NCBI RefSeq assembly: GCF_000012805.1
Contig: NC_007484.1
Location: forward strand, 510,001-542,000
Direction of reading: 5' to 3'
From: Nitrosococcus oceani ATCC 19707
Lineage (GTDB): Bacteria; Pseudomonadota; Gammaproteobacteria; Nitrosococcales; Nitrosococcaceae
Length of the DNA stretch: 32,000 bases
Made by a program: the position numbers and the translations under genes. Positions 5,886-29,449 of the stretch are shown here, in pieces (position 1 is the stretch's first letter; every line of letters starts with the position of its first letter). The notes beneath the pieces are model-generated. The model was not told the DNA's origin and made no database searches. It worked only from the letters and a program-made list of their open reading frames with translations.

Positions 5886-7294
5886 AACTTTGGGCGCTCA
5901 TCCCCGAGCTTATCCTGGGGGGGTCATGCTTGCTATTGGTCCCCCTTGCCGGCTGGGTGCGGGGTAAATGGCGGATGCTGCCAGGGCTAATGGCCCTGCT
6001 GGGTCTGCTTGCCTGCCTGGTGGCGACTGCCAGAATGCTTCCCTGGCAGCCGGTGACGGCCTTTCACGGTAGTTACGCCATTGATGGTTTCGCCCATTTT
6101 TTCAAGCTAATTATTGAATTAAGCAGTCTGCTTACGGTGGCGCTGCTCATGATATATTTCCGCGGCCACTCCCAGCAGGCCCCGGCAGCGGTCGCGGTGA
6201 TTTTCGCCACTTTGGGCGCCGTGGGGTTGGCTTCTAGCCGGGATCTGGGGTTAATCGTGCTTTTCTTTCAGATGATGAGCATGGCGGGCTATGTGCTGGC
6301 CGCCCTTGAGCGTCACCACCGGCCTGCCTTAGAAGCCGCCCTTAAATATTTTATTTATGCGGGGGTCACCTTAGCCACCATGGCCTATGGGCTGACTTTC
6401 TTTTACGGCTTGACGGGTAGTCTTAATTTGCAAGTGATTGGATCGGATTTGCAGGACGCTGATGGGCTGTGGGTGACCTTGGCCCTGATTTTGATTCTCG
6501 TTGGTTATGGCTTTGAGATTACGTTGGCGCCCTTTCATGTGTGGGCTCCGGATGTATTTTCCGGCGCGACGGCGCCAGTGGCCGGCTTTCTTGCCGTTGT
6601 GCCCAAAGCGGCTGGCATAGCGGCCCTGCTGCGTTTTATGCTGGAAGGAATGCCCGGTGAAATGGTGGGATGGCCCCTCTGGCTCGCTATAGGCGCCGCC
6701 ATGACCATGACGCTGGGTAATGTCGTCGCCCTGGGGCAGAATCATCTTAAACGCTTGCTGGCCTGGTCGAGCATCGCCCACGCCGGATATCTTCTCATGG
6801 CGGTAGCCGTGGCTGAACGGGCGCCGGAGGCTTTGGCGGCCATTGGTTATTACTTCGCTGCTTATTTGTTTATGACCCTGGGCGCATTTGCAGTGGGCGC
6901 TCATTTGGAACGCGCGGCAGGCAGCGATTCGTATGAAGCGCTTCGTGGCTTAAGTCAACGCGCGCCTATGGGAGCCGGGGTGTTGGCCCTATGCCTGTTG
7001 TCGCTGGCAGGCATCCCGCCCCTGGCCGGTTTTGCCGGCAAAGTTTTTTTGCTAGAAGCAGTGCTTGACGGGGAAATGATATGGCTTGCCGTTATCGCGG
7101 CGATTAATATGACCCTGGCGCTCTATTATTATGTCAAGATTATTGCCGAGATATATCTTTACTCTCCTGTCCGCACTTATTCTATGCCTACAGGAGGCGG
7201 TTACCTTATTGTTTACAGCGGGTGTGTGTTGGGCATTCTCGGCTTGGGGATCTGGCCTGGACCGTTGCTGGTATTGCTTGAATTAATGGGATAA
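5882..7294 (+). CDS. nuoN: Complex I subunit N (NuoN/ND2)-like
   Basis: ATG 5882 overlaps the nuoM stop (ATGA). Motifs are LAPFHVWAPDVFSGATAPVAGFLAVVPKAAG, LKRLLAWSSIAHAGY and GIPPLAGFAGKVFLL. The track start at 5723 lies inside nuoM. Confidence 0.85.
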   Translation: MKLWALIPELILGGSCLLLVPLAGWVRGKWRMLPGLMALLGLLACLVATARMLPWQPVTAFHGSYAIDGFAHFFKLIIELSSLLTVALLMIYFRGHSQQAPAAVAVIFATLGAVGLASSRDLGLIVLFFQMMSMAGYVLAALERHHRPALEAALKYFIYAGVTLATMAYGLTFFYGLTGSLNLQVIGSDLQDADGLWVTLALILILVGYGFEITLAPFHVWAPDVFSGATAPVAGFLAVVPKAAGIAALLRFMLEGMPGEMVGWPLWLAIGAAMTMTLGNVVALGQNHLKRLLAWSSIAHAGYLLMAVAVAERAPEALAAIGYYFAAYLFMTLGAFAVGAHLERAAGSDSYEALRGLSQRAPMGAGVLALCLLSLAGIPPLAGFAGKVFLLEAVLDGEMIWLAVIAAINMTLALYYYVKIIAEIYLYSPVRTYSMPTGGGYLIVYSGCVLGILGLGIWPGPLLVLLELMG

Positions 7295-7370
7295 ATAATT
7301 CCTTGTATAATCGCTGCTAAGCTAACCGTGCTATCCCCACCCATTGCATGTCTGAAGCGTTCAACTCACA

Positions 7371-7397
7371 AACCGGAGACATCCTTGTCTACCGGTT
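7371..7397. terminator. Imperfect hairpin between convergent nuoN and the DUF1328 gene (likely bidirectional terminator)
   Basis: 'aaccggagaca-tcct-tgtctaccggtt' lies between the two stop codons. It is conserved in repeat copy B. Confidence 0.55.
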
Positions 7398-7418
7398 CTG
7401 AGTGAAGCCATATCCGCT

Positions 7419-7589
7419 CTAGAGAGGAGGCCGCCCCCGCCGTCCTAAAAGCAAGAAAACCACAAATAAAATAAGCCCTACCACAAATAGAATCCACGCA
7501 ATGTGGGTAGCCACTCCTGCCAATCCTGTAAAGCCAAAGAGCGCTGCTATAAGCGCGATAATCAAAAAAGTTACTGCCCATCCGAACAT
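7419..7589 (-). CDS. DUF1328 (UPF0391, YtjA-like) small membrane protein, 56 aa
   Basis: My own translation is [56 protein letters not shown]. The SD 'gaggagg' lies 6-7 nt upstream. It is below the track's 60-aa cutoff; track ORF 7366..7581 is the wrong frame. Confidence 0.85.
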
Positions 7590-7626
7590 TTTTTCCTCCT
7601 CGTGTATTCTATATTTACGAAATAAA

Positions 7627-7633
7627 AGTATAG
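7627..7633 (-). promoter_or_regulatory. Candidate sigma-S-type -10 element (CTATACT) for the DUF1328 gene
   Basis: The minus strand reads 'gaaCTATACTttt' about 38 nt upstream of the ATG. It is conserved in copy B. Confidence 0.35.
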
Positions 7634-8192
7634 TTCAAGATTTTTAGAGAGTATAAAATCATAAGAACATACGTTTAAAAATATAAGCGGTATTTAACTT
7701 TTACCTTCGCCTTTCAATAATACTTTTTGTTCGCTATAGGATTTATACTTTTGGAAAAATTCTGAGTGTATGGAGATCCCAGAGACAGGAATCACTATCA
7801 GGCGCGGGTTACGGGGTTTTTCTGAAATAACCGTGGCTGCGCGTTTATTGCTAGGAAAGGTACTCGCGTGCAAGTCGTCACCAGCTCTGCCATGCTGGCG
7901 AGAGAGAAGAGTTGAATTCTGTCCTCCTCCTTGCTTACTTTGCAAAAGGAGAGAACTGGATTAGGGATTAAAGCTCCTTATAATTGAAAGTAGGCCGTGC
8001 TGCTTAAATAAAGAGGCCAGGACGATCAGATGCGGGAGTATGATTGATTTGTAATATAGCCTTGAATAATATTTTAACGGCCTAACCTAGGATGGAAATT
8101 ATGTGGGCTTTCTCGATAGAATTTTATCAATAACCGAATAGTTATAAATTTCCGGCCAGAGCCTAGCAGGGTAGAATTATTTTTTTGAAAAA

Positions 8193-8847: not shown

Positions 8848-8854
8848 ACTTCTC

Positions 8855-9004
8855 GCCGAGATGTATCTTTACTCTCTCCTATCTATATTTACCATGCCCA
8901 CCAGGAGCGGTTACCTTACTGTCTACAGGGGATGTGTGTTGGGAATTCTCGGCTTGGGGATCTGGCCTGGACCGTTGCTGGTATTGCTTGAATTAATGGA
9001 ATAA
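8855..9004 (+). pseudogene. Relic of the last 49 codons of nuoN, with no upstream gene body
   Basis: It translates to AEMYLYSLLSIFTMPTRSGYLTVYRGCVLGILGLGIWPGPLLVLLELME*. The genuine NuoN end is AEIYLYSPVRTYSMPTGGGYLIVYSGCVLGILGLGIWPGPLLVLLELMG*. Both are 150 nt. Confidence 0.8.
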
Positions 9005-9082
9005 ATAATTCCTTGTATAATCGCTGCTAAGCTAACCGTGCTATCTCCTATCTCATTGCATGTCTGAAGCGTCCAACTTACA

Positions 9083-9108
9083 AACCGGAGACATCCTTGT
9101 CTACCGGT
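9083..9108. terminator. Copy of the 7371-7397 hairpin
   Basis: The same 'aaccggagaca..tgtctaccggt' sequence. Confidence 0.5.
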
Positions 9109-9130
9109 CCTGAGCGAAGCCATATCCGCT

Positions 9131-9301
9131 CTAGAGAGGAGGCCGTCCTCGTCGTCCTAAAACCAAGAAAACCACAAATAAAATAATTCCTACCACAAAT
9201 AAAATCCATGCAATCTCTGTCGCTATACCGGCTATCCCAGTGAAACCAAGGAGAGCTGCTACGAGTGCAACAATTAAAAAAGTTACTGCCCATCCGAACA
9301 T
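9131..9301 (-). CDS. DUF1328 (UPF0391, YtjA-like) small membrane protein, second copy, 56 aa
   Basis: My own translation is [56 protein letters not shown]. The SD is 'aggagg'. Track ORF 9078..9293 is the wrong frame. Confidence 0.85.
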
Positions 9302-9339
9302 TTTTTCCTCCTAATGCAATTAGTTAATTATGAAATAAA

Positions 9340-9346
9340 AGTATAG
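9340..9346 (-). promoter_or_regulatory. Candidate sigma-S-type -10 element (CTATACT) for DUF1328 copy 2
   Basis: The minus strand reads 'gaaCTATACTttt', the same as copy A. Confidence 0.35.
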
Positions 9347-9697
9347 TTCAGATTTTTTGGAAGTACATAAGTTTTTAAATATAATCTATTTCAGGCTTGC
9401 GTCCTTATATCATTCCAATAGCGATTTGTACTGTTTTCCGTTAAGATAAATTTTAATATATCTTTCACATAAAGCATCTGTATCAGTACCCGTATTCCGA
9501 TGGGAAGGGACGTGGTTAGTAATATGTCAAGGACGCCAAAGGCCATTCCCATCGTTATTGGTTAGAATTTTAAATTAAGACCTTGGAAGAATTTTCTTTA
9601 GGTATCTAAAATTGATTTAAACCAAATCGCATGTTGGAAGGTAAAAAATAGCTAACTCTAAGAGGCATTAAAATTAGAAAAATTCTGACCGGCAAAC

Positions 9698-20086: not shown

Positions 20087-20223
20087 TTTGAGGTCAAGGA
20101 AAAGGAGGAATTTGAAGATCAGTAAAAAGATTAGAACCTTTAAGGGAATTGCAATCCTTTAATTCCAAATAGCGGAAGCTATAGAAGGTATATTGCTAAC
20201 TGATGAAAATGAGGAATCAGCTC

Positions 20224-20535
20224 ATGAAAAAGATAAATTCGCTTTTAATTTCCGCCGTTGCTTTATCGCTTATGCTAGCAAGCACAGTACTATCCGCGGA
20301 GCAGCATAAGGGCATGGAAGGCATGGATAAAGGCCAGCATAAGGGCATGGAAGGCATGGACAAGGGCCAGCAACATAAGGGTATGGAAGGCATGGACAAG
20401 GGCCAGCATAAGGGCATGGAAGGCATGGATAAAGGCCAGCATAAGGGCATGGAAGGCATGGACAAGGGCCAGCATAAGGGCATGGAAGGGCAGGAAGAGC
20501 CTACCTCTCGTAGCCGGGGAAATTATCCTGATTAA
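20224..20535 (+). CDS. Periplasmic Met/His-rich tandem-repeat protein (candidate metal, e.g. Cu(I), binding)
   Basis: The SD 'gagga' lies before ATG 20224 and there is a signal peptide (...STVLSA-EQ). Six repeats of QHKGMEGMDKG follow. The track start at 20203 is also possible. Confidence 0.75.
   Translation: MKKINSLLISAVALSLMLASTVLSAEQHKGMEGMDKGQHKGMEGMDKGQQHKGMEGMDKGQHKGMEGMDKGQHKGMEGMDKGQHKGMEGQEEPTSRSRGNYPD
20302..20490 (+). repeat. Tandem 33-bp coding repeat (5 full units, one of them 36 bp, plus a partial sixth)
   Basis: The unit is 'cagcataagggcatggaaggcatggat/caaa/gggc'. Units differ only at a few synonymous positions and by one extra CAA. Confidence 0.95.
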
Positions 20536-20641: not shown

Positions 20642-21784
20642 ATGCATGTACAGAAGAAGATTACGCACCAAAAAATAATTCGTTATGTTTCTCTGCTAGT
20701 ATTAGTTTTTATTCCTGCCTTGCTCATTGCTTCTACTAAAACCCTTCCTCCTGATTTTTACCAGCAGGTGAATCATTTTCTCACAATCAAGCAAAATATG
20801 AGCAAGCCGCTGGTTCTAAAAGCTCATCAAATCGTACAACGAATTGTCAAAACTACTGAAAGCAGGGAAGGCTTCGTCCAGAAAGTAAAGGAATTAAAAG
20901 CTTATCTCCGAATCATATGTGATTTATCCCAGTTGCAAACCCTTCAACGGGCGCTTCTCCTTGAAGAAGAAATTAATTCTCACATTGAGTCTTGGAATAA
21001 AGAAATTAAACGCAGGCGCGGTACAATCGCCTGGACGGCAATAGCACTGGGCGCCCTTATTGGCTTGCTCATCGTTATCTTTAGAGCCATTCGAGAAGAT
21101 AGACTAGAGTTAGAGCATCTTCGGAAAATGGGTATTGATGTACTCATCTGGGCGCCTCTTACTATTGGTGGCGGGCTAAGCGTGGGGAATGTGATTGCTG
21201 TAAAAGAAGTAGAACATAACCCGATGCTCTTGGTACATCCAGCTGAATTGATAAGGGCTCATTCTGGAGATGTGGCTACCTATGAGATTGAATCTCAATT
21301 GAAAGCATTTTTAGCAACAAAAGATAAATCGTCCCGTTTCCAAGAAATACAAAAAAAAATCCAAGCCTTGCATTCCAAGGCTCCCGAACGAGTGAGTTCG
21401 AGAATACGGTATATGAAAAAGGTAATAGAACATGCGCCCCAAGAAGAATTGGGAATCTCCAAAAAAGAGCAGTGGGAACGGCTAGAAACCCTACAAAAAA
21501 GTCTTTCTAGCGAGTTTTCCTCAGCTTCAACATCAATTTCTTGGTGGGATGAGTTACGCTATTTCCTTAGCGATTATAGCTATAAGATTGCAATAGTCGG
21601 CGCCATCTTAGGGGCCATTATTTTTCTCCTCCCCTTGTGCTTCAGCAATGGATGGTCCTGGCCATACGCGATCCTGCTTCTTGTGATTGGCCTCAGCGTG
21701 GGTTTATCCCTGGGCCAGATGGGGGCAGAACTCATAAAGAAAGAAACACCCCAGGAAATTCTTTACCATGAGGCCGCATTCTGA
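20642..21784 (+). CDS. Hypothetical membrane protein with central coiled-coil-like region
   Basis: Track ORF of 380 aa. It has an N-terminal TM, internal TMs (AWTAIALGALIGLLIVIF) and two C-terminal TMs. No family recognised. Confidence 0.65.
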   Translation: MHVQKKITHQKIIRYVSLLVLVFIPALLIASTKTLPPDFYQQVNHFLTIKQNMSKPLVLKAHQIVQRIVKTTESREGFVQKVKELKAYLRIICDLSQLQTLQRALLLEEEINSHIESWNKEIKRRRGTIAWTAIALGALIGLLIVIFRAIREDRLELEHLRKMGIDVLIWAPLTIGGGLSVGNVIAVKEVEHNPMLLVHPAELIRAHSGDVATYEIESQLKAFLATKDKSSRFQEIQKKIQALHSKAPERVSSRIRYMKKVIEHAPQEELGISKKEQWERLETLQKSLSSEFSSASTSISWWDELRYFLSDYSYKIAIVGAILGAIIFLLPLCFSNGWSWPYAILLLVIGLSVGLSLGQMGAELIKKETPQEILYHEAAF

Positions 21785-21799
21785 AGAAAGCTTGAGAGA

Positions 21800-22076
21800 T
21801 TGGAGTTTCGCCATGATGGATAGCAGTTTTGTTCCTACAAAACCTCATCCGCCTGGAGAATTCGCGCTTCAATGGGTGCCTTGGGCTGGCCACGACTTAG
21901 CGCGCAAGGCCCTCAGTTGGGTATCACCCTCCACGCGCATCACTTCTCCTCCTCCCGAGGATAGGTCGCGCTATTGGCAACGGGAAAATCATAGCGCCAA
22001 TTCATGGCAAAACGCAAGTAACCTGGCCCTCGCGCTCGCAGCAAAGCTACGCTTCGCACGCTCGCTAGGGGGTCGT
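21800..22076 (-). mobile_element. Miniature tnpB-less derivative (MITE/PATE-like) of the IS200/IS605-family element at 27604-29062
   Basis: The reverse complement aligns to both ends of the full element. A 50-nt left-end block (22075-22026 vs 27634-27683) matches at 41/50 by hand count. About 160 nt (21957-21800) align with 28913-29062, and similarity stops at the shared 'aaactccaa'. Confidence 0.65.
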
Positions 22077-23192
22077 TCACCATCCATGGAGAACTCCAAC
22101 GCCCCGAAATTGCCGGTGTTCGTCAATTTCCAGAACGAGATCGGCCCGCCCTGGCATTTCATCCAACAGGTATTCCGTCAGCCGTTGAAAGTGCATAATA
22201 AAACGCCGCAGTTCTGATGCGCTCATGGCGCGCCGCTCTTCTCTATTGCTCTGTCCGTGCCGCAACGCTTGGGCAAGCTGCTGTTCCTGCTCTAGCCGCT
22301 GCCTATAAACTACCTCGAAGGTAGGTATTTCAAGAAAGAGTAGGGCATCCAATAAACCGAACAATTGCGCATACTCATTTTCCAGCATCCCATTGACATA
22401 ATGGCGCCACGCGCCTTCCTGATCTTCCCGTGCCTCCAGAATGTTAACAGGTTTAGTCAGGCGCGGCGCAGGCTCTGGCCTGGCTCCCACACACCACCCT
22501 TCAAACAAAATAATGGCCGGTTTTCCTTGAAAAGCGGTCCATTTCTCCCGCGGCAGAGGATTATCCATGGCCTTATCAAAAACCGGCAGCAAGGTTACGG
22601 TGTCTGGGTCCGCCCTTTTCACGGATGTCAAAATTTCCATGGCCAGCGATACATCATGCGTCCCTGGCACCCCCCGGGTCTGGAAAAGAGGGTGAACCTG
22701 ATCCGCTAAGCGGAGGCGCTCAGTCTGGCTAAGGTAAAAATCATCCATGGATAAAATAGCCGTCCGCTGGTCAAAACCGGCCTCAAGAATAATCTGAAGC
22801 AAGCCGCAAAGGGTAGATTTGCCTGATCCTTGAGCCCCGCTTATTCCAAGGACTAACACTTCCTTGGAATTTCTTGCTCTCTGCATTATTATCCAGTGGG
22901 CTAAGGGGAGATAAATCCGCCAGAGAGTTTCTAGTGGCGGAGGATTTAACCGCAACTGCTGGCATCTAGCCTTAAAGGTGGGATAAATTAAGGGTAGCAG
23001 ACGGCATTTAGTTGCTAGCCGCTGCTGGGTGCAGGTTGTCGTCCTGGAGGCACCCCAGAATCGGCCTGTATCCCTTTCTAATCGCTTTAAGAGCAAATGG
23101 GCGTGGGCATCGAGATCAACAAATTTCTTCCCTTCTCCTAGCCTGCGGAGAACATCAAAGACTAATTCATCCGCTTCAATCAATTCGGACAT
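22077..23192 (-). CDS. P-loop kinase of the plant/cyanobacterial D-glycerate 3-kinase (GLYK, COG4240) type
   Basis: The Walker A motif is 'GISGAQGSGKSTL'. It is followed by 'LSMDDFYLS', 'FQTRGVPGTHD' and 'ILFEGWCVG', as I remember for this family. Confidence 0.7.
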   Translation of the reverse strand: MSELIEADELVFDVLRRLGEGKKFVDLDAHAHLLLKRLERDTGRFWGASRTTTCTQQRLATKCRLLPLIYPTFKARCQQLRLNPPPLETLWRIYLPLAHWIIMQRARNSKEVLVLGISGAQGSGKSTLCGLLQIILEAGFDQRTAILSMDDFYLSQTERLRLADQVHPLFQTRGVPGTHDVSLAMEILTSVKRADPDTVTLLPVFDKAMDNPLPREKWTAFQGKPAIILFEGWCVGARPEPAPRLTKPVNILEAREDQEGAWRHYVNGMLENEYAQLFGLLDALLFLEIPTFEVVYRQRLEQEQQLAQALRHGQSNREERRAMSASELRRFIMHFQRLTEYLLDEMPGRADLVLEIDEHRQFRGVGVLHGW

Positions 23193-23277
23193 CTTCGATC
23201 CTCTTTTCTCTCCAGGTAAATTGTAAAATGCTATGATTCGTTATTGAACATACAATTGTCCTAGAGGAGCTGGTCCC

Positions 23278-24768
23278 TTGTCATCGCCAACCCATGAGAC
23301 TTTCGCCCATTCCATCCCCAAGGGTAAACTCGTTAAAGCCTTCAGCGCGTTTCTTTCCCCAGAAACTATTCTTTTTGAAGAGGAAGATTTGCGCCCCTAT
23401 GAGTGTGATGGGCTTTCTGCCTATCGCGTCCTCCCCTGGATGGTAGTATTACCGGAAACAGTCGAGCAGGTCCAAAAAATCTTGCAAATTTGCCATAGTT
23501 GGGATATCCCGGTGGTGGCGCGAGGGGCGGGTACCGGCCTTTCCGGTGGAGCCTTACCCCTGAAAAACGGTGTGTTACTCAGTCTTGCGAAATTTAACCG
23601 TATTCTTGCTATTGACCCTATTAGCCGCACGGCCCGAGTGCAACCGGGGGTGCGAAACCTAGCCATTTCTGAAGCAGCTGCCCCCGCCGGGCTCTATTAC
23701 GCCCCTGATCCCTCTTCGCAAATCGCCTGCACCATTGGTGGCAATGTGGCAGAAAATTCTGGCGGCGTCCACTGCCTTAAATATGGTCTCACGGTTCATA
23801 ATATCCTTGGATTAAAGATGCTGACCATGACGGGGGAGGAGATTTCCCTGGGAGGTGAAACCCTTGATTCTCCTGGCTATGATCTCCTGGCCCTCATGAC
23901 GGGATCGGAGGGGCTGCTTGGGGTCATCATCGAAGTCACGGTCAGGCTTTTGCCCCTCCCCGAGCGGGCCCAGGTGATTTTGGCGGCCTTCGATAACGTG
24001 GCCAAGGCAGGCGCCGCGGTAGGAGGGATTATCAGCGCGGGTATTATCCCCGGGGGCTTGGAGATGATGGATAATCTGGCGATCCGGGCCGCCGAGGATT
24101 TTGTCCATGCAGGCTATCCCCAGGAAGCCGCCGCCATTCTGCTATGCGAGCTAGACGGTACCCAGGCGGAGGTTTCTCATCAGATCCGCAAAGTCCGGGA
24201 ATTGCTGCTGAGCCATGGCGCCATCGAAATTCGCACAGCCCTGGATGAGCAAGAACGGGCAAAATTGTGGCAGGGGCGTAAGGCGGCCTTCCCGGCTGTT
24301 GGCCGCCTGGCACCCGACTATTACTGCATGGATGGGACCATTCCCCGTAACCGCCTGCCCCAGGTCTTAGAACGGATTAACGAGCTTTCTCAAGAGTTCA
24401 ATCTTCCCGTGGCTAACGTTTTTCATGCGGGGGACGGAAATCTGCACCCTCTCATTCTCTATGATGCTAATCGCCCTGGCGAGCTGGAGCGGGCTGAACA
24501 GCTTGGGGCTAATATCCTGGAGCTTTGTGTTGCCGTTGGCGGTACTATCACGGGTGAACATGGGGTAGGAATAGAAAAAATTAACCAGATGTGCATCCAA
24601 TTTGGCACCGCTGAACTACAACAATTTCACGCCCTCAAAGCTGCCTTTGATCCCAAGGGCCTGCTTAATCCGGGGAAAGCCGTTCCTACTTTGCATCGCT
24701 GTGCCGAATTTGGGGCCATGCATGTCCATCAAGGTAAACTTCCTTTTCCAGAATTGGACAGATTTTAA
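23278..24768 (+). CDS. glcD: Glycolate oxidase subunit GlcD (FAD-linked oxidase)
   Basis: The TTG start has the SD 'gaggag' 9 nt upstream. The N-terminus is GlcD-like (PYECDGLSAYRVLPWMVVLPETVEQVQ...VVARGAGTGLSGGALP). The length matches at 496 aa. Confidence 0.85.
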   Translation: MSSPTHETFAHSIPKGKLVKAFSAFLSPETILFEEEDLRPYECDGLSAYRVLPWMVVLPETVEQVQKILQICHSWDIPVVARGAGTGLSGGALPLKNGVLLSLAKFNRILAIDPISRTARVQPGVRNLAISEAAAPAGLYYAPDPSSQIACTIGGNVAENSGGVHCLKYGLTVHNILGLKMLTMTGEEISLGGETLDSPGYDLLALMTGSEGLLGVIIEVTVRLLPLPERAQVILAAFDNVAKAGAAVGGIISAGIIPGGLEMMDNLAIRAAEDFVHAGYPQEAAAILLCELDGTQAEVSHQIRKVRELLLSHGAIEIRTALDEQERAKLWQGRKAAFPAVGRLAPDYYCMDGTIPRNRLPQVLERINELSQEFNLPVANVFHAGDGNLHPLILYDANRPGELERAEQLGANILELCVAVGGTITGEHGVGIEKINQMCIQFGTAELQQFHALKAAFDPKGLLNPGKAVPTLHRCAEFGAMHVHQGKLPFPELDRF

Positions 24769-24804
24769 GTCAAGATCCGATTAATAAAGGCCACGCTAAA
24801 CACT

Positions 24805-25197
24805 TTAACTTAGCGAGCTGCCATTGCCATAGGGTCGGGTGATAATTTCGAGGAGGTGTCCGTTAGGGTCCTCAAAGTATACGCCTCGACCGCCGTCGTT
24901 GTGGTTGATTTCACCTGATCGGTTTTGGCCTGGATCGGCCCAATAAGGAATATTGCGCTCGCGAAGGCGGGCGAAGATTTCATCAAACTCGGTTTCTGTA
25001 ATAAGGAAAGCGTAGTGTTGCGAGGCGATCTCGCCATCGGTTTCGTAGAAATCCAAATTTACCTTGTTATCCATCTCAACCACCAGGAACGGGCCGAAGG
25101 GTTTAGCCTCAGGTAGTCCAAGTATCTCAGTCAGAAATTTTGCCGATTGCTCCTGGTTGTGTGACATCACAATGGTATGGTTGAGTTGCACAGCCAT
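24805..25197 (-). CDS. VOC (glyoxalase/bleomycin-resistance/dioxygenase) family protein
   Basis: ATG 25197 has the SD 'aaggagag'. The sequence is MAVQLNHTIV...HYAFLITETEFDEIFARL...GRGVYFEDPNGHLLEIIT. The track start at 25263 is an extension. Confidence 0.8.
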   Translation of the reverse strand: MAVQLNHTIVMSHNQEQSAKFLTEILGLPEAKPFGPFLVVEMDNKVNLDFYETDGEIASQHYAFLITETEFDEIFARLRERNIPYWADPGQNRSGEINHNDGGRGVYFEDPNGHLLEIITRPYGNGSSLS

Positions 25198-25333
25198 AGC
25201 GCTCTCCTTTATTTTAATCTTAAAAGATGCACGGGACTTTACTCCTCTGGACAGCTTAAGCATTAATAAGTTTAGAAACGCTTTGAAATATTTTAAATAC
25301 CCAGCCTAAGAAGGCGGGCGTCAATATGGCCGT

Positions 25334-26068
25334 CTATTCCAAGAAATGTCCGCAGCCACGATATGTTTTATCCGCCAATTTGAGAATCACTTGGGCTTGG
25401 AACTGTTCACCGCTCATGCTGTCAATGCAGGTTCCCGGTGTGATTAGGATCCGTAGTCTATGTGTCCCTGTTTTGGTTTCGTAGATAGTGCTTTCGCCGC
25501 TTGTTGTTGGATTCATCTCAGGTAGAGGAATCCTGGTCTTACCATAATCCATCAGCAGATGGATTTCGCCTTTCTTGATGATTTCCATTATCCAGCCCGG
25601 CTCGTTGCCAGTAGCACGGAAACCCACAGGCCAGAAAGAGTTTGGAATGCGCGCCTCGCGTTCCTGGTTGCGGCGGCAACCCTGATAGCGTTTGTCGTTG
25701 ATCTCGAGTATGGCGCTATCGCCCTTATGCCAAAAGAGCATCTTTTTTCCTTTATATTTAGCGCCGGACGCGGCGCGTACTTGAGCTAATGTCTCGCTGC
25801 GGCCCTAGGGAAGATACAGAGTAATTTTGTCGGGATCGCTAACTGTGCTAAGGACAAGGTCGTCACACTCAAATACCCAAGGGCGAGGAGGTTTTTGCTT
25901 TACGTTTGGTGGGAGCGCCACGCGTTTCCAGGAACTTACCGTTCCAGAGATAATTTTTTTCTGCAATCCCTAATGGGAGTTGTTGTTTACTGGCTGGTCG
26001 GCAGAATGACTACAGGCGATTAGAATTGCGAGCCCCATAACCGTCAATATGAACTTTATTTTAGACAT
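25334..26068 (-). pseudogene. Lipoprotein with MliC-like and COG3650-like (GNEPGW) domains, interrupted by two in-frame TAG codons
   Basis: One continuous frame runs from ATG 26068 (MSKIKFILTVMGLAILIA-C, lipobox) to TAG 25334-25336. The only interruptions are TAG at 25970-25972 and TAG at 25805-25807. The MliC-like block 'FECDDLVLSTVSDPDKITLYLP*GRSETLAQVRAASGAKYKGKKMLFWHKGDSAILEINDKRYQGC' spans the second stop. Confidence 0.7.
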
Positions 26069-26560
26069 AATTAGGATTGATATTAGCATAGCGTTATAAA
26101 ATAAAATCTGATTTTTTCCTTTCTTAACAAAGCATATATTTGTGATCTTGGGATGGTTGAATTGCCAGAAGATCACCAGCATGGGAGCTGATTTATTCTA
26201 CTTCCCCATCAAGTCGCTTGTTCAGAACATAGAAATTCATAAAACACAATCTAGCACTCTCCCATCGCAAATCAGAAGTTCCATGACGCCTCTAAAAATT
26301 AGCGGAGCTAATGGAGCGGCGGTACTTGTCTTACGTAGCAATGCCAATAGATGATTAAAGTCTGTTGGTAAAAAGACGAAGTTACTAGAGGTAGGCTATC
26401 GTTTAAGAGTGGGATTGATGATTTCCAATCCATAAGTAGACAGGTTTCCTTTGATTCTCAAATTAATATCAATTTATTGAATAAATTACTCTAAAGTAAT
26501 GTTTGGGGATGAGGCTAGATTTGGGTCTTTGTTATTCTAAACTACGGGAAAGAGAAGTTT

Positions 26561-26764
26561 ATGCATAAAGTTGTGTTTGTTCTCATTGTTACAGTGATCT
26601 CTGGCTGCGCTAGCCAGGCTGGACCCTTCGTCACTAATATCAGCAGCGATGGTAGAGGTGGTCTCGTCGTAGAAAAATGTATGGTCCGGCTTGATAGAAT
26701 GATTAATACAGTAGAGGCAGCCAGCTGCACTAACACTCCGATTGCGCTCACTAACGGCAGGTAG
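26561..26764 (+). CDS. Small lipoprotein (67 aa), hypothetical
   Basis: MHKVVFVLIVTVISG-C lipobox and a weak SD 'gagaag'. The overlapping minus-strand ORFs look like shadows. Confidence 0.5.
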   Translation: MHKVVFVLIVTVISGCASQAGPFVTNISSDGRGGLVVEKCMVRLDRMINTVEAASCTNTPIALTNGR

Positions 26765-26832
26765 TTTGTTTTTGGTATGAAGCAGGTCCCATAAAATAAT
26801 CAGGGAATTAGGATGGGTAAAAAGGACATCCT

Positions 26833-27438
26833 GTGAAGAATAATTACATATTAATCGATTACGAGAATGTTCAACCAAAGAGTTTGGCTGTTCTCAAAGA
26901 TCATCCATCTAAGGTACTGGTTTTTATAGGCGCTAATCAAACTAAAGTGCCATTTGATTTTGCTTCATCGCTACAATCCTTAGGCGGCAATGCCGAGTAC
27001 GTGAAAATCGCTGGAAATGGTTCCAACGCTCTGGATTTCCATATTGCGTTCTATATAGGTCAATTAGCGGAGCGGGACCCGAAAGGCTATTTTCACATCA
27101 TCTCGAAAGATACTGGCTTTGATCCCCTTATCCGGCATTTGAAAGAAAAAAAGATATACGCTCAACGAGAAAAGGAGATATCCGAGATACCTTTTCTAGG
27201 CGTTTCGAATGCTACTTCATCCGAAGAGAAAATAGTTGCTATTGTAAAAAGCCTTTCCTCGCGTGGTCATTCCCGGCCCCGCAAGGTTAAAACTTTAGCA
27301 AATACGATCAACGCATTGTTCATGAAAAAGCTTGGAGAAACTGAATTAATGCGTTTGATTGAACAATTGCGCCAGCAGAAATATATTGTGATAGAGAACG
27401 AAAATGTTAGTTATAAACCACCCATTAGCCATCCCTAA
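26833..27438 (+). CDS. PIN-like (NYN-type) domain protein with a C-terminal helical/wHTH-like tail
   Basis: The start is GTG. The N-terminus 'ILIDYENVQPK...VLVFIGANQ...GSNALDFHIAFYIGQ...FHIISKDTGFDPLIRHL' fits the PIN-like/NYN pattern of acidic residues. Confidence 0.65.
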   Translation: MKNNYILIDYENVQPKSLAVLKDHPSKVLVFIGANQTKVPFDFASSLQSLGGNAEYVKIAGNGSNALDFHIAFYIGQLAERDPKGYFHIISKDTGFDPLIRHLKEKKIYAQREKEISEIPFLGVSNATSSEEKIVAIVKSLSSRGHSRPRKVKTLANTINALFMKKLGETELMRLIEQLRQQKYIVIENENVSYKPPISHP

Positions 27439-27800
27439 CAAGGCCGTGAATCGATTGCCTCACTGGTTTTATTCTGTAGGAAATTCCGGCTGAGCGTTCT
27501 GGACGTTAAGATGGAGGCAAGAGGTGTTGCCTTCTCGGTATCAGCGGTCCCAGTACAGGTCTTCCACGGAGGTTTTGCCACTAACTTCTGCCTCTCTCCT
27601 CTAAGCTCCTTCGAAGGAGTACAGGGATGTACGACGACCCCCTAGCGAGAGTGCGAAGTGGAACGGCGCATCGAGCGCGAGGGTCCCATAAAGTGATGTT
27701 GGCGGCGGGCAAAATTCGCGGTAAAATAAGCGCGGCTAGAGGGTGCTTGCAACACCACCTAGCCACTTGCCACCGACCCAATGAGAAAAGCATTGAGGCC

Positions 27801-28979
27801 ATGACCGAGCACGATTCTACCACTGTTCAGCGGTCCTATACATTCCGCTTCTACCCCACGAGTGTCCAGCGCCAGCAACTGGCTATGGAATTCGGCCATG
27901 CCCGGTGGGTATGGAACACCTGTCTGACCTGGCGGGGCCGTCAATATAGGGTACATGACAAGCGCGTGACTGGCGTTGATTTTAGCCGCCAGCTCACGTT
28001 CCTCAAAGGGTTAGGCCCGTACGCTTGGCTCAAGGAGGCCAGCGCCACCTGCCTGATCCAAAAGCTCAGGGACCAGGACACGGCCTTCAGGCATTTTTTT
28101 GCGGGGCGAGCGAAGTATCCCCGTTTCAAAAAAAGAACGCATACCCAAAGCATCCGCTATCAACTCGATCAACGTCAGGTAGCAGGCATGTATCGAGCGG
28201 GCGAGTTTCTTAAATTGCCCAAACTCGGGGCACTCAAGCTCAAGTGGTCCCGCAAGCCCCAGGGCATCCCCAAGATGGTGACGGTCACCCAGGATTGCGT
28301 CGGCCGTTATTGTGTTTCGTTCATGTGCGAGGAAACCCTCCAACCCCTACCGCGAAAGCCAAACGGTATCGGTGTTGATTTAGGGGTGTGCGATGTGGTG
28401 GTGACCTCCGAGGGCTGGAAGTCCGGTAATCCTCGGCACCTACGCACGCATACCCGGCAACTCAGAAAAACCCAGCGCAGGCTATCCCGCAAGCGTAAGA
28501 GCAGTGTTCGTTGGCATCGTCAGCGGATACGGGTTGCTAAAGCTCATGCCAGGGTGAGCAATACCCGCCAGGATTGGCTGCACAAGCTCACCACGGCGCT
28601 GATTCGCCAGGCGGGGTTCATTGCCATGGAAACGCTCAACGTCAGGGGCATGATGGCCAATAGACGGCTATCCAAGGCGTTGGGCGATGTGGGGATGCAT
28701 GAACTCAAGCGGCAAATGGAATACAAGGCTAAGTGGTATGGCCGCGAGTTTAGGCAAGTAGACCGCTGGGCGCCCACCAGTAAAACGTGCTCGGTGTGTG
28801 GCGCAGTGCAAAAAGCCATGCCGCTCAAGGTCCGCGAGTGGACCTGCCCGGACTGCCAAACAGCCCATGACCGCGACATCAACGCGGCCAGAAATATTTT
28901 AATTTTAGCTACCGGCGGGAGGCCGGGAAGTCATGCGCGTGGAGGAGTATACCAACCGGCGGCGGCTTATGGCTGCTAA
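27801..28979 (+). CDS. tnpB: TnpB (OrfB) RNA-guided endonuclease, apparently intact
   Basis: ATG 27801 gives MTEHDSTTVQRSYTFRFYPT... RuvC-I is IGVDLGV and RuvC-II is IAMETLNVRGM. The zinc ribbon is CSVCG...CPDC and RuvC-III is HDRDINAARNI. The track start at 27627 is an upstream extension across the left end. Confidence 0.9.
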   Translation: MTEHDSTTVQRSYTFRFYPTSVQRQQLAMEFGHARWVWNTCLTWRGRQYRVHDKRVTGVDFSRQLTFLKGLGPYAWLKEASATCLIQKLRDQDTAFRHFFAGRAKYPRFKKRTHTQSIRYQLDQRQVAGMYRAGEFLKLPKLGALKLKWSRKPQGIPKMVTVTQDCVGRYCVSFMCEETLQPLPRKPNGIGVDLGVCDVVVTSEGWKSGNPRHLRTHTRQLRKTQRRLSRKRKSSVRWHRQRIRVAKAHARVSNTRQDWLHKLTTALIRQAGFIAMETLNVRGMMANRRLSKALGDVGMHELKRQMEYKAKWYGREFRQVDRWAPTSKTCSVCGAVQKAMPLKVREWTCPDCQTAHDRDINAARNILILATGGRPGSHARGGVYQPAAAYGC

Positions 28980-29062
28980 AGGACTCCATGGAAACGCGAA
29001 TTGCAGCAAGGCGAGTGAGCTTGTCGGGAACAAGCGAATGAGGCTTAGCCGCAAACTCCAAA
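28913..29062 (+). ncRNA. Predicted omega-RNA (reRNA) scaffold region of the TnpB element
   Basis: Position follows characterised TnpB systems (3' end of tnpB plus right end). This stretch is exactly the part conserved in the tnpB-less miniature copy, including a hairpin with compensatory changes. Confidence 0.4.
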
Positions 29063-29207
29063 CATAATAAGTATGACCGTTAATATATTGGCTTTTGGTA
29101 GCGGGAAAACCTTTCTTACCAAGCCCTGGCCAGCGCAGATCATCTCATCCCTATAGGGTCAAGCCTTGTGGTTTGTTTGCTTTTAATCTTATGGTAGGGT
29201 TGAACTC

Positions 29208-29449
29208 ATGGTTCGGCCTTTACGTATTGAATTTCCCTGACACCTTTTATTATGTGGCTTTCTGCGGCCCGCAGCAAAACCCCTAAAGTTCTTTCCAAAA
29301 GGCATTGTGACCAAGATGAGGCTATTTGCGGGCCTATGCTAGTGGTGGGCGCACGATGAAGGAAATAGGCGCTCGCTTTGATCTTCGTTATTCTCGTGCC
29401 AACCAAATTATTAGGGCCGTGGGGGAAGCCAAGAGATAAAGAAACGATG
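29208..29449 (+). pseudogene. Internally deleted, frameshifted relic of a COG1943/RAYT-like Y1 transposase with a C-terminal HTH
   Basis: The N-terminal signature is 'MVRPLRIEFP', then (after a frame change) 'DTFYYVA'. The C-terminal signature is 'DEAIC', then (after a frame change) 'RAYASGGRTMKEIGARFDLRYSRANQIIRAVGEAKR*'. The catalytic core between them is missing. Confidence 0.5.

What the first reader, a model, noticed from the sequence alone, without database searches (positions are those of the whole stretch)
21800..22076. tnpB-less miniature IS200/IS605 derivative that retains the omega-RNA-coding right end: a possible orphan guide RNA locus
Read on the minus strand, this 277-bp GC-rich segment has two parts.

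(i) A 50-nt left-end block matches the block in front of tnpB (27634-27683). Perfectly conserved 16-nt and 12-nt arms (acgaccccctagcgag ... cgagcgcgaggg) surround a variable core.

(ii) About 160 nt align with the last ~65 nt of tnpB plus the right end (28913-29062):
- shared strings include 'gaagt.atgcgcgtggagg' and 'cgcgaatt'
- a hairpin sits at the same place with different but still complementary arms (gcttgt/acaagc vs gttttgt/acaaaac), which is covariation expected for a functional RNA
- both copies share the terminal 'aaactccaa', after which similarity stops

In characterised TnpB systems this region is the omega-RNA scaffold, and the 16-20 nt beyond the right end is the guide. The miniature could therefore supply the TnpB encoded 5.7 kb away with a second guide ('tctctcaagctttcttcag', 21799-21781). 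That guide is complementary to the plus-strand sequence around the stop codon of ORF 20642..21784.

The element exactly fills the gap between two convergent genes. The kinase stop codon abuts its left end.
Basis: partly seen in the sequence, partly recalled or inferred. Interest (0 to 1): 0.7.

Follow-up and report, generated by a model that had tools for sequence, protein, structure and literature searches.

The report
Gene-less mini-transposon retaining TnpB guide RNA
A roughly 298-bp remnant of an IS605-type jumping gene in Nitrosococcus oceani has lost its TnpB nuclease gene but keeps both transposon ends and a structurally intact guide-RNA scaffold; it is a real example of the "stand-alone guide RNA / PATE" elements already described in the literature.

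Summary
On the minus strand, 22076-22027 matches the left-end hairpin block of the TnpB element at 27634-27683 (41/50 identical). Minus-strand 21972-21800 matches the last ~80 nt of tnpB plus the right end (28901-29061). The alignment score is about 15 sd above shuffles.

I built a covariance model only from TnpB-linked right ends. It hits the mini end-to-end at 78 bits (E 4e-19); the next best hit in the window scores 8.5 bits. All five helices are kept, with about 11 compensatory pair changes and no disruptions. The invariant strands that match the ISDra2 pseudoknot are also kept.

The window is Nitrosococcus oceani AFC27. An uninterrupted site in a relative, plus orthologue C-termini, put the left junction at 22098|22097. 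The element is therefore 22097-21800, and its left end supplies the last six codons and the stop of the glycerate-kinase-like gene.

Function in trans is plausible but unproven:
- no promoter was found;
- only one copy was detected;
- the scaffold is only ~61% identical to the resident copies;
- no TnpA was located.

Gene-less PATEs that encode ωRNAs, and stand-alone ωRNAs working in trans, are already published. This is a new member of a known kind.

The parts
21800..22097 (-). Whole miniature element (about 298 bp): left end + linker + right end with omega-RNA scaffold; no protein gene
   Evidence: The right boundary is set where two further full copies and the mini all stop being similar. 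The left boundary comes from the uninterrupted site in L128 and from orthologue C-termini. Only short ORFs lie wholly inside the element (22-47 aa; longer ones of 53-149 aa merely run across its ends); the one annotated (47 aa, NOC27_2433) is a 90%-identity cluster of one.
22077..22097 (-). Outermost left end. It supplies codons GVLHGW plus the TGA stop to the glycerate-kinase-like ORF 22077-23192
   Evidence: About 55% identical to the tip of the full-copy left end, GAAGGAGTACAGGGATGTACG. The kinase tail departs from its orthologues immediately after the conserved ..F(R/Q)(G/S)V. The junction sits at GCGTT|GGAGTT relative to L128.
22027..22076 (-). Left-end subterminal imperfect hairpin: conserved stem base, variable but still self-complementary tip
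   Evidence: 41/50 identical to 27634-27683. DNA folds of the mini and of both full copies pair the conserved arms and, in the mini, a longer inner stem.
21973..22026 (-). Linker of unknown origin. It replaces the tnpB 5'UTR and almost all of tnpB
   Evidence: Similarity to 27680-28912 is no better than shuffles. The scan found no sigma-70-like site. By eye there is a sub-threshold TTGCGT-18-TATGAT at 22017-21988. A weak terminator-like hairpin at 22009-21995 occurs at chance frequency.
21800..21972 (-). Omega-RNA scaffold homologue / right end. Helices: H1 21961-21957 with 21951-21947; H2 21937-21933 with 21867-21863; pseudoknot strands TGGAG 21933-21929 and CTCCA 21805-21801; H3 21929-21925 with 21878-21874; H4 21843-21837 with 21832-21826; H5 21819-21817 with 21813-21811
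   Evidence: Model R1, built from five TnpB-linked right ends without the mini, scores 78.4 bits, E 4e-19, over model positions 1-171 with no non-canonical pairs. Helix tables are, coordinates, family covariation.
21780..21799 (-). Would-be guide (TCTCTCAAGCTTTCTTCAGA): the flank 3' of the right end. It overlaps the TGA stop (21782-21784) of the convergent ORF 20642-21784
   Evidence: Position follows from the right-end boundary. The 16-mer is unique in the window. The guide-from-flank rule is taken from the ISDra2 literature.
22098..22102 (-). Candidate TAM (GCGTT) immediately 5' of the left end; native kinase codons G-V
   Evidence: The same GCGTT precedes the left end of full copy L040. The other two full copies have TCCTT(C) and GACAT(C), so the motif is not resolved.
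27612..29061 (+). Full-length solo-TnpB element (IS1341-type) used for comparison. The left boundary is uncertain, 27597-27613
   Evidence: Pairwise comparison with the second copy L040 and the third copy L130.
27801..28979 (+). tnpB, 392 aa, predicted active RNA-guided nuclease
   Evidence: Pfam HTH_OrfB_IS605, OrfB_IS605 and Cas12f1-like_TNB. Full-length match to ISDra2 TnpB structures 8h1j/8exa, E 4e-71. The RuvC residues D193, E277 and D359 are invariant in the family alignment.
28901..29061 (+). Omega-RNA scaffold of the full element. It overlaps the last 79 nt of tnpB, stop codon included
   Evidence: R1 scores 156 bits; helices.

Best explanation
This is a non-autonomous, protein-less derivative of an IS200/IS605-family solo-TnpB (IS1341-type) insertion sequence. 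[quoted passage not shown] It is fixed in Nitrosococcus oceani, inside the 3' end of a D-glycerate-3-kinase-like gene.

Shown here:
- It keeps the left-end subterminal hairpin and the right end.
- It keeps a complete, undisrupted omega-RNA scaffold: stem 1 analogue H2, pseudoknot strands UGGAG/CUCCA, and helices H1, H3, H4 and H5.
- It has lost the tnpB 5'UTR and nearly all of tnpB.

Inferred mechanism:
1. The minus strand is transcribed by read-through from the kinase gene, which has the same orientation, or from a weak internal promoter.
2. The scaffold is bound and trimmed in trans by one of the many resident TnpB paralogues.
3. The 16-20 nt copied from the right flank (UCUCUCAAGCUUUCUUCAGA) act as the guide.
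4. If a Y1 TnpA excises the mini, the resealed donor site (..GCGTT|TCTCTCAAGC..) becomes TAM + target. It is cut and repaired from a sister copy, which reinstates the mini.

The mini would thus parasitise TnpA for movement and TnpB for retention.

My probabilities: identity and intact scaffold about 0.9; that it is currently expressed and used by a resident TnpB about 0.35-0.4.
For: Homology of both ends to the full element, far above shuffles.

The right-end boundary is confirmed by three full copies.

The covariance model built without the mini recovers it end-to-end at 78.4 bits, E 4e-19. The next best hit in 32 kb scores 8.5 bits.

Helices:
- In the MAFFT alignment H1, H2, H3 and H5 are fully paired in the mini. 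H4 is fully paired after manual re-registration, or in the CM alignment.
- Against the window's full copy there are about 11 both-sided (compensatory) changes and no broken pair.
- Across nine family members 94.8% of cells pair, versus 74% in shuffles and 27-48% when the partners are slid. Thirteen pairs have double changes.

The single-stranded motifs AUGCGCGUGGAGG and GAAGCGCGAA are invariant or nearly so across the family; the terminal CUCCAA is kept in the mini, the N. oceani full copies and two of the three other TnpB-linked members (UUCCAA in L041 and L036, which still pairs by G-U). UGGAG/CUCCA reproduces the ISDra2 pseudoknot geometry, in which -5..-3 pairs with about -103..-105 (PMC10097598).

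An active-looking TnpB lies 5.7 kb away, and the species has several 82-94% paralogues.

The uninterrupted site in L128/L129 and the orthologue tails fix the insertion point.

The broader TnpB clade sits next to a Y1 TnpA in 14 of 80 loci.

TnpB-less scaffold-bearing relatives occur in intergenic DNA of two other Proteobacteria: L022 at 54.8 bits and L005 at 28 bits.

Published precedent: PATEs 'often encode omega-RNAs' that need TnpB in trans, and stand-alone omega-RNAs work in trans.
Against: - The scan found no sigma-70-like promoter in the mini. The full element's promoter-like site (27699-27727) lies in a region the mini lacks.
- A terminator-like hairpin sits in the linker upstream of the scaffold, although such hits occur at chance frequency.
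- Only one copy is detectable. The element-encoded 47-aa ORF is a cluster of one, and no match was found in plasmids or viral contigs.
- The scaffold is ~61% identical to the resident copies, comparable to elements whose TnpBs are only ~55% identical. Compatibility is therefore uncertain.
- The parent subfamily (..LGRRRSDARGG*) is not among the N. oceani TnpBs seen.
- The compensatory changes may all predate the deletion. They show an intact scaffold, not selection on the mini itself.
- MFE z-scores are unremarkable at -0.9 and -1.5.
- No TnpA was located in this genome, and the TAM is unresolved.
Confidence: 0.6

Rival explanations
1. Same origin, but now an inert fossil. An old internal-deletion (or recombinant) derivative was fixed in N. 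oceani. It is not transcribed as a functional RNA and is not bound by any resident TnpB. The scaffold looks intact only because it was intact when tnpB was lost and little time or few mutations have passed since.
For: - Single copy, with no near-identical duplicates.
- No promoter-like site.
- ~61% identity to the resident scaffolds, and the parent subfamily is absent from the genome.
- The third full copy, L130, shows that members of this family do decay in place: it has a truncated left-end hairpin and a 29-nt insert in H4.
Against: None of about 24 base pairs is broken, and every conserved single-stranded motif is intact. This is despite the element predating the spread of the sampled N. 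oceani strains: the kinase with the element-encoded tail is found on 8 contigs. The orientation matches the upstream gene, which favours read-through expression.
Confidence: 0.4
2. An exapted element. The insertion now serves the host as a structured 3'UTR or insulator between two convergent genes that overlap in relatives. Alternatively its read-through transcript acts as an antisense RNA against the 3' end of ORF 20642-21784. Either role would be independent of TnpB.
For: In the relative L128 the two genes overlap by 52 nt. In N. oceani they are separated by the element. The element is G+C-rich and highly structured. The would-be guide and any read-through are antisense to the stop region of the convergent ORF.
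Against: There is no terminator-like signal above chance. Nothing distinguishes this insertion from an ordinary insertion at a TAM. The conserved features are exactly those of the TnpB scaffold, not of a terminator.
Confidence: 0.08
3. Not an IS605 derivative at all: chance similarity, a REP/RAYT-type palindrome, or a TIR-type MITE.
For: It is a short, G+C-rich, palindrome-containing intergenic sequence.
Against: Alignment scores are about 15 sd above shuffles. The hit to a model built from TnpB 3' ends is end-to-end. A remnant of the TnpB C-terminal reading frame is present. By direct reading there is no target-site duplication, and there are no long terminal inverted repeats. No repeat copies occur in the window beyond the full element.
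Confidence: 0.01

Closest known systems
PATEs (palindrome-associated transposable elements) of IS200/IS605, including the ISGst1/ISGst5-related PATEs of Geobacillus stearothermophilus (Meers et al. 2023, bioRxiv 10.1101/2023.03.14.532601)
   Same: No protein gene. The left and right ends are homologous to a full-length TnpB element in the same genome and have subterminal hairpins. The right end carries an omega-RNA that would need a TnpB encoded elsewhere; the paper states this explicitly.
   Different: Here only one copy is detectable. It is about 39% diverged from the resident scaffolds, so it comes from a different, apparently absent, subfamily. Mobility and TnpA are not demonstrated.
Stand-alone omega-RNAs of OMEGA systems (Altae-Tran et al. 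2021, as summarised in PNAS 2023, PMC10691335)
   Same: An omega-RNA locus without an adjacent effector or transposase, in a genome that also holds effector-containing loci. Such RNAs were reported to work in trans with compatible effectors.
   Different: Trans function is untested here, and compatibility is uncertain because of divergence.
ISDra2 TnpB-omega-RNA (Deinococcus radiodurans; PDB 8h1j, 8exa; PMC10097598)
   Same: The neighbouring TnpB aligns over its full length (E 4e-71). The scaffold lies at the 3' end of tnpB plus the right end. There is a stem next to a pseudoknot formed by the last nucleotides before the guide, and the guide is the flank.
   Different: The scaffold primary sequence, the right-end terminus (CTCCAA here) and the TAM (possibly ..GTT; TTGAT in ISDra2) all differ. 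There is an extra covarying 5' hairpin, H1. The mini has no tnpB.
TldR / nuclease-dead TnpB-like repressors with fixed guides (bioRxiv 10.1101/2023.11.30.569447)
   Same: A TnpB-family guide RNA used away from transposition would be the analogous exaptation.
   Different: The resident TnpB keeps its D-E-D triad. No TAM-adjacent host target was identified, and there is no evidence of domestication.
REP/BIME elements with RAYT transposases, and TIR-type MITEs
   Same: Short, non-coding, palindrome-bearing, intergenic.
   Different: There is direct homology to a tnpB 3' end and to IS605-type ends. There are no long terminal inverted repeats and no target duplication. The element is not highly repeated.

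Membership tests
IS200/IS605-derived PATE | No protein-coding gene between the ends | tested here: met
   Only short ORFs lie wholly inside the element (22-47 aa; longer ones of 53-149 aa merely run across its ends). The annotated 47-aa ORF has no relatives in its 90% cluster. One ORF is the frame-remnant of the TnpB C-terminus.
IS200/IS605-derived PATE | Left and right ends homologous to those of a full-length family member, with subterminal imperfect hairpins | tested here: met
   Left-end block 41/50 identical. Right end about 15 sd above shuffles. Hairpins fold in both elements. H4 is kept by two compensatory changes.
IS200/IS605-derived PATE | No target-site duplication and no long terminal inverted repeats | tested here: met
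   The flanks ..GGGGCGTT| and |TCTCTCAAG share nothing. Only a 5-6 nt complementarity exists between the left-end tip GGAGTT and the right-end tip AACTCC.
IS200/IS605-derived PATE | Insertion 3' of a conserved tetra- or pentanucleotide (TAM) shared with the full-length elements | tested here: inconclusive
   GCGTT precedes both the mini and L040. The window copy has TCCTT(C) and L130 has GACAT(C). Four sites are too few to define the motif.
IS200/IS605-derived PATE | A Y1 (HUH) TnpA in the genome able to mobilise it; evidence of multiple copies or mobility | not testable with these tools
Y1 TnpA adjoins 14 of 80 distant relatives, but none was seen in N. oceani loci. Only one mini copy was detected.
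Stand-alone omega-RNA (OMEGA/TnpB) | Scaffold homologous in sequence and secondary structure to effector-linked omega-RNAs | tested here: met
   R1 was built without the mini and scores 78.4 bits, E 4e-19, end-to-end. Helices are all paired, with family covariation.
Stand-alone omega-RNA (OMEGA/TnpB) | No adjacent effector or transposase gene | tested here: met
   The neighbours are a glycerate-kinase-like gene and a membrane-protein ORF.
Stand-alone omega-RNA (OMEGA/TnpB) | A compatible effector in the same genome | tested here: inconclusive
   Active-looking TnpB paralogues are present. The scaffold is only ~61% identical to theirs, and the tail remnant matches none of them. The core motifs are identical.
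Stand-alone omega-RNA (OMEGA/TnpB) | Expressed, bound by the effector, and directs cleavage in trans | not testable with these tools
   Needs RNA-seq, RIP and interference assays.
Rfam-curated RNA family | Match at or above a family's gathering score | tested here: not met
   No Rfam 15 family reaches its gathering score anywhere in the window, including over the full element's right end. An E-value-threshold scan of 21600-29300 also listed nothing over either right end.
TnpB (neighbouring gene 27801-28979) | HTH + OrfB_IS605 (RuvC) + zinc-finger TNB domains with the D-E-D catalytic triad | tested here: met
   Pfam hits. D193, E277 and D359 are invariant. Full-length alignment to ISDra2 TnpB.

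The most novel reading that the evidence does not exclude
The mini is the surviving guide-RNA module of a TnpB subfamily that is no longer present in N. oceani. It has been kept intact by selection because resident, only distantly cognate TnpB paralogues still load it. That would be natural cross-family sharing of an orphan omega-RNA. Alternatively, its read-through transcript has been co-opted to regulate the convergent gene pair it now separates.
Probability: 0.1. Interest if true: 0.55.

Novelty: new member of a known kind. Interest (0 to 1): 0.3.

Why it matters
It is a clean, well-bounded natural example of a guide-RNA-only IS605 derivative. It has an uninterrupted site in a relative, three full-length paralogues in the same species, and an adjacent active-looking TnpB.

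If the scaffold is loaded by TnpBs whose own scaffolds differ at about 39% of positions, that would show how tolerant TnpB-omega-RNA pairing is. It would also show how gene-less elements hitch-hike on both TnpA and TnpB.

The family alignment also provides a covariation-supported scaffold model for a gammaproteobacterial TnpB clade that matches no Rfam family at its gathering score. Otherwise the finding is ordinary mobile-element biology.

Tried and rejected
- **Rfam.** Nothing reaches a gathering score. A scan of 21600-29300 up to E = 10 gave only a SymR-like sub-threshold hit in the full element's 5'UTR, which is unrelated to the mini.
- **Genome-wide census.**
  - My single genome-contig scan used GAAGTNATGCGCGTGGAGG. 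It returned 37 loci, mostly chance matches, and none from N. oceani.
  - It did reveal TnpB-less relatives L022 and L005.
  - The census of the source genome therefore could not be done.
- **Exact-protein look-ups.**
  - These failed or returned no DNA for P0002, P0003, P0004, P0009 and P0012, and for two of my own TnpB start choices.
  - P0001, P0253 and P0122 worked.
- **Metagenome scan with TnpB.** It gave only 7 loci.
- **Other collections.** Plasmids and viral contigs had no match to the mini or to the left-end 16-mer.
- **Mini linker 22026-21973.** Its similarity to the tnpB 5'UTR and coding region is no better than shuffles.
- **Single-sequence folding energies.** The z-scores are uninformative at -0.9 and -1.5.
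- **MAFFT alignments.** They misplace H3 and H4 for some rows. I relied on manual registration and on the CM-based alignment, which leans towards the model's structure.
- **TAM.** It could not be resolved from four insertion sites.
- **Rejected explanations.** Chance similarity, REP/RAYT, TIR-MITE, and any special meaning of the guide matching the neighbouring stop codon.

Full report
**Source and setting**

The window is Nitrosococcus oceani AFC27 (GCA_000155655.1, scaffold DS995301.1). An exact-protein look-up of the GcvT gene returned that record, with the same gene order. The best TnpB homologues are named N. oceani AFC27 / ATCC 19707.

The finding lies between two convergent genes:
- ORF 22077-23192 (minus strand). 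It has a P-loop, and its homologues are called D-glycerate 3-kinase or "kinase-like protein".
- ORF 20642-21784 (plus strand). It has no Pfam hit and looks like a membrane protein.

About 5.7 kb away is a solo tnpB at 27801-28979:
- It carries the Pfam domains HTH_OrfB_IS605, OrfB_IS605 and Cas12f1-like_TNB.
- It aligns over its full length to ISDra2 TnpB structures at E 4e-71.
- The RuvC D-E-D residues are invariant in the family alignment.
- No tnpA is nearby; the upstream gene is a PIN7-domain protein.

Yes.
- The 50-nt left-end block aligns without gaps, 41/50 identical, with perfect 16-nt and 12-nt arms.
- The right part gives a local score of 52 against 17.5 +/- 2.2 (max 29) for shuffles. 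Under looser scoring the alignment runs to the shared AAACTCCAA.
- The diagnostic strings occur only at the two elements in the window. The repeat finder reports the same two inverted pairs (I1 and I2).

**Boundaries**

Right end. A second full copy in the same scaffold (L040, TnpB 94% identical) and a third (L130, 82%) lose similarity to the window copy exactly after ...GCCGCAAACTCCAA. This is the true right end. The mini ends with the same motif at 21800.

Left end of the full copies.

Left end of the mini. Three observations agree on a junction at 22098|22097:
- Bases 22097-22077 are about 55% identical to that left-end tip.
- The kinase C-terminus is conserved among 14 orthologues up to ..EIDEHRQF(R/Q)(G/S)V. 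In N. oceani it then switches to GVLHGW*.
- A close relative (L128/L129; kinase 83% identical) has no element. Its two genes overlap by 52 nt, and the alignment breaks at ..GCGTT|GGAGTT...

The element is therefore 22097-21800 (298 bp). It supplies the last six codons and the stop of the kinase gene. The right junction against L128 is less clean: 15-17 nt after the right end also lack a counterpart. I attribute this to indels in a non-conserved tail.

The kinase protein with the element-encoded tail is found on 8 contigs, including the ATCC 19707 chromosome. The insertion is therefore fixed in the sampled strains. N. watsonii and N. halophilus have different tails.

**Anatomy of the mini**

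- Outer left end plus hairpin block: 22097-22027.
- A 54-nt linker with no detectable similarity to the full element: 22026-21973.
- A 173-nt right part: 21972-21800.
- One short internal ORF reads ..ILGRRRSDARGG*. This is the frame-remnant of the TnpB C-terminus (..ATGGRPGSHARGGV.. in the window copy).

**Does it keep the omega-RNA?**

Rfam reports no family at its gathering score over either right end, so I collected relatives:
- the three N. oceani full copies;
- metagenomic TnpB loci L041/42, L043 and L047;
- L036 from the genome scan.

RNAalifold on seven sequences found four helices, three of them covarying. A fifth small hairpin is visible by eye.

The mini compared with the window's full copy:

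| Helix | Full copy | Mini | Both-sided changes |
|---|---|---|---|
| H1 | CCGGC/GCCGG | UCCUC/GAGGA | 3 |
| H2 | CGCGU/ACGCG | CGCGU/GCGCG | none; one one-sided change (U-A to U-G) |
| H3 | GGAGU/ACUCC | GGGUG/CACCC | 3 |
| H4 | GCUUGU/ACAAGC | GUUUUGU/ACAAAAC | 2, after re-registering MAFFT's misalignment |
| H5 | GGC/GCC | CCA/UGG | 3 |

That is about 11 compensatory changes and no broken pair.

I then built covariance model R1 from five TnpB-linked right ends only, leaving the mini out. With filters off it finds:
- the full element at 156 bits;
- the mini at 78.4 bits, E 4e-19, covering model positions 1-171;
- nothing else above 8.5 bits.

On the CM alignment of nine family members, 94.8% of cells pair. 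Column shuffles give 74%, and sliding the partners gives 27-48%. Thirteen of 21 pairs show both-sided changes. The caveat is that a CM-fitted alignment leans towards the model's structure.

The single-stranded motifs AUGCGCGUGGAGG and GAAGCGCGAA are invariant or nearly so across the family; the terminal CUCCAA is kept in the mini and most members (UUCCAA in L041 and L036).

UGGAG sits next to H2, and CUCCA lies at positions -6..-2 before the guide. The two are complementary. This mirrors the ISDra2 structure, where nucleotides -5..-3 pair with -103..-105 to form the pseudoknot that stacks on stem 1, and where about 116 nt of scaffold suffice (PMC10097598).

By that analogy the mini contains the whole functional core plus about 40 nt upstream. 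H1 and H3 lie outside the transposon-end hairpin, and H1 lies inside tnpB coding sequence in the full copies.

**What limits the functional claim**

1. *Expression.*
   - The scan finds no sigma-70-like site in the mini.
   - The promoter-like site of the full element (27699-27727) lies in a region the mini lacks.
   - By eye there is only a sub-threshold TTGCGT-18-TATGAT at 22017-21988.
   - Read-through from the co-oriented kinase gene is the likeliest source of a transcript.
2. *Compatibility.*
   - The three resident scaffolds are 88-94% identical to each other. The mini is ~61% identical to each, similar to elements whose TnpBs are ~55% identical.
   - All N. oceani paralogues seen end ..VGRTGSDARGGV.. 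or ..GGRPGSHARGGV...
   - The mini's remnant is closest to Ca. Nitrosoglobus terrae P0012 (..LGRRESDVRGG..).
   - The mini is therefore not a recent deletion of a resident copy. The compensatory changes may all have arisen while its ancestor still had tnpB.
3. *Copy number and mobility.*
   - The element-encoded 47-aa ORF (NOC27_2433 / WP_002812691.1) forms a 90% cluster of one.
   - I could not scan the genome.
   - No Y1 TnpA was seen in N. oceani loci, although 14 of 80 more distant relatives have one immediately upstream.
4. *TAM.* The four left flanks read GCGTT (mini and L040), TCCTT(C) and GACAT(C). The motif is unresolved.

**Mechanism**

Shown:
- the element is a protein-less IS605-family derivative with both ends;
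- it has a complete, undisrupted scaffold;
- it is inserted at a defined site.

Inferred from the published homing model (Meers et al.; PNAS 2023):
- the RNA is made by read-through and loaded in trans by a resident TnpB;
- its guide is the 3' flank UCUCUCAAGCUUUCUUCAGA;
- its only meaningful target is the resealed donor site after excision (GCGTT|TCTCTC...);
- cleavage of that site, followed by recombination with a sister copy, restores the element.

The guide's overlap with the neighbour's stop codon follows simply from where the element landed.

**Comparison with what is known**

Meers et al. describe PATEs related to ISGst1 and ISGst5. [quoted passage not shown] My own scan supports recurrence. 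Two other Proteobacteria carry TnpB-less intergenic copies that match R1 end-to-end: L022 at 54.8 bits and L005 at 28 bits.

**Verdict**

The identification as a tnpB-less IS200/IS605 miniature that retains the omega-RNA is well supported. Its use as a second guide for the nearby TnpB is plausible but untested, and it is weakened by divergence, by the absence of a promoter and by the single copy. The kind of element is already described, so this is a new member of a known kind and of modest interest.

Noticed in passing
window 27729-27806 (minus strand): A sub-threshold Rfam match to the SymR antitoxin RNA: 39.3 bits against a gathering score of 61, full model length, two hairpins. It lies antisense to the tnpB 5'UTR and start codon, inside the full element's left end. 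This 5'UTR is strongly conserved among paralogues; it reads as 'LATCHRPN..SIEAMT' in over-called N-termini. It could be an antisense regulator of tnpB, or a chance structural match. The mini lacks this region.
   Followed up: partly
L130 1470-1500 and 2830-2870 (third N. oceani full copy): This copy has lost the 3' arm of the left-end hairpin (ACGACCCCCTAGTGAGGTCGC|AAAGTGATG). It also carries a 29-nt palindromic insertion inside right-end hairpin H4. It looks like a full-length copy decaying at its ends.
   Followed up: partly
window 22097-22092 with 21806-21801; 27613-27619 with 29055-29059; also L040 and L130: The left-end tip GGAGT(T) is complementary to the right-end tip (A)ACTCC in every copy. 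The same right-end tip is complementary to the invariant UGGAG of the omega-RNA core (the pseudoknot analogue). The last bases of the right end may therefore serve both as the TnpA cleavage motif and as an RNA pseudoknot strand. The RE-LE circle junction would be an inverted repeat.
   Followed up: no
window 27597-27611 versus L040 2903-2917: The 15 nt upstream of the GAAGGAG left-end tip are 11/15 identical between two full copies in unrelated contexts (TCCTCTAAGCTCCTT versus TCATCCAAGCGCGTT). Both resemble a right-end terminus (..CTCC.. / ..TCCAA..). This could be an extended target preference, or insertion next to older right-end remnants.
   Followed up: no
L022 4283-4458 (minus) and L005 6274-6441 (minus): Other Proteobacteria (Gammaproteobacteria bacterium CCP3-SC1AL1; a Pseudomonadota MAG) carry intergenic, TnpB-less sequences that match the scaffold model end-to-end, at 54.8 and 28 bits. 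L022 ends in GGACTCCAA. Guide-only derivatives of this clade are therefore recurrent.
   Followed up: partly
window 7140-7650 and 8850-9361: A duplication of about 500 bp at 88% identity. It contains the last ~40 codons of a NuoN-like ORF (5723-7294) and, on the minus strand, a 56-aa small membrane-protein gene with a strong Shine-Dalgarno sequence ([20 protein letters not shown]...; UPF0391-like from memory).
   Followed up: partly
window 20269-20507: Five tandem, in-register 33-nt repeats inside ORF 20203-20535, encoding QHKGMEGMDKG-type repeats (family D1).
   Followed up: no
window 26833-27438; L130 3085-3698: Full copies of this TnpB family sit next to toxin-antitoxin-type genes: a PIN7-domain gene upstream in the window, and a VapB-PIN pair downstream in L130. 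A VapB gene was also called upstream of the P0009 copy.
   Followed up: no
Genome-contig scan: The exact 19-mer present twice in N. oceani AFC27 was not returned from any Nitrosococcus record in the species-representative collection. Yet the same proteins are recorded on the ATCC 19707 chromosome. The cause is either a gap or masking in the stored data, or a different representative genome. It means that absence from that scan is not evidence of absence.
   Followed up: no
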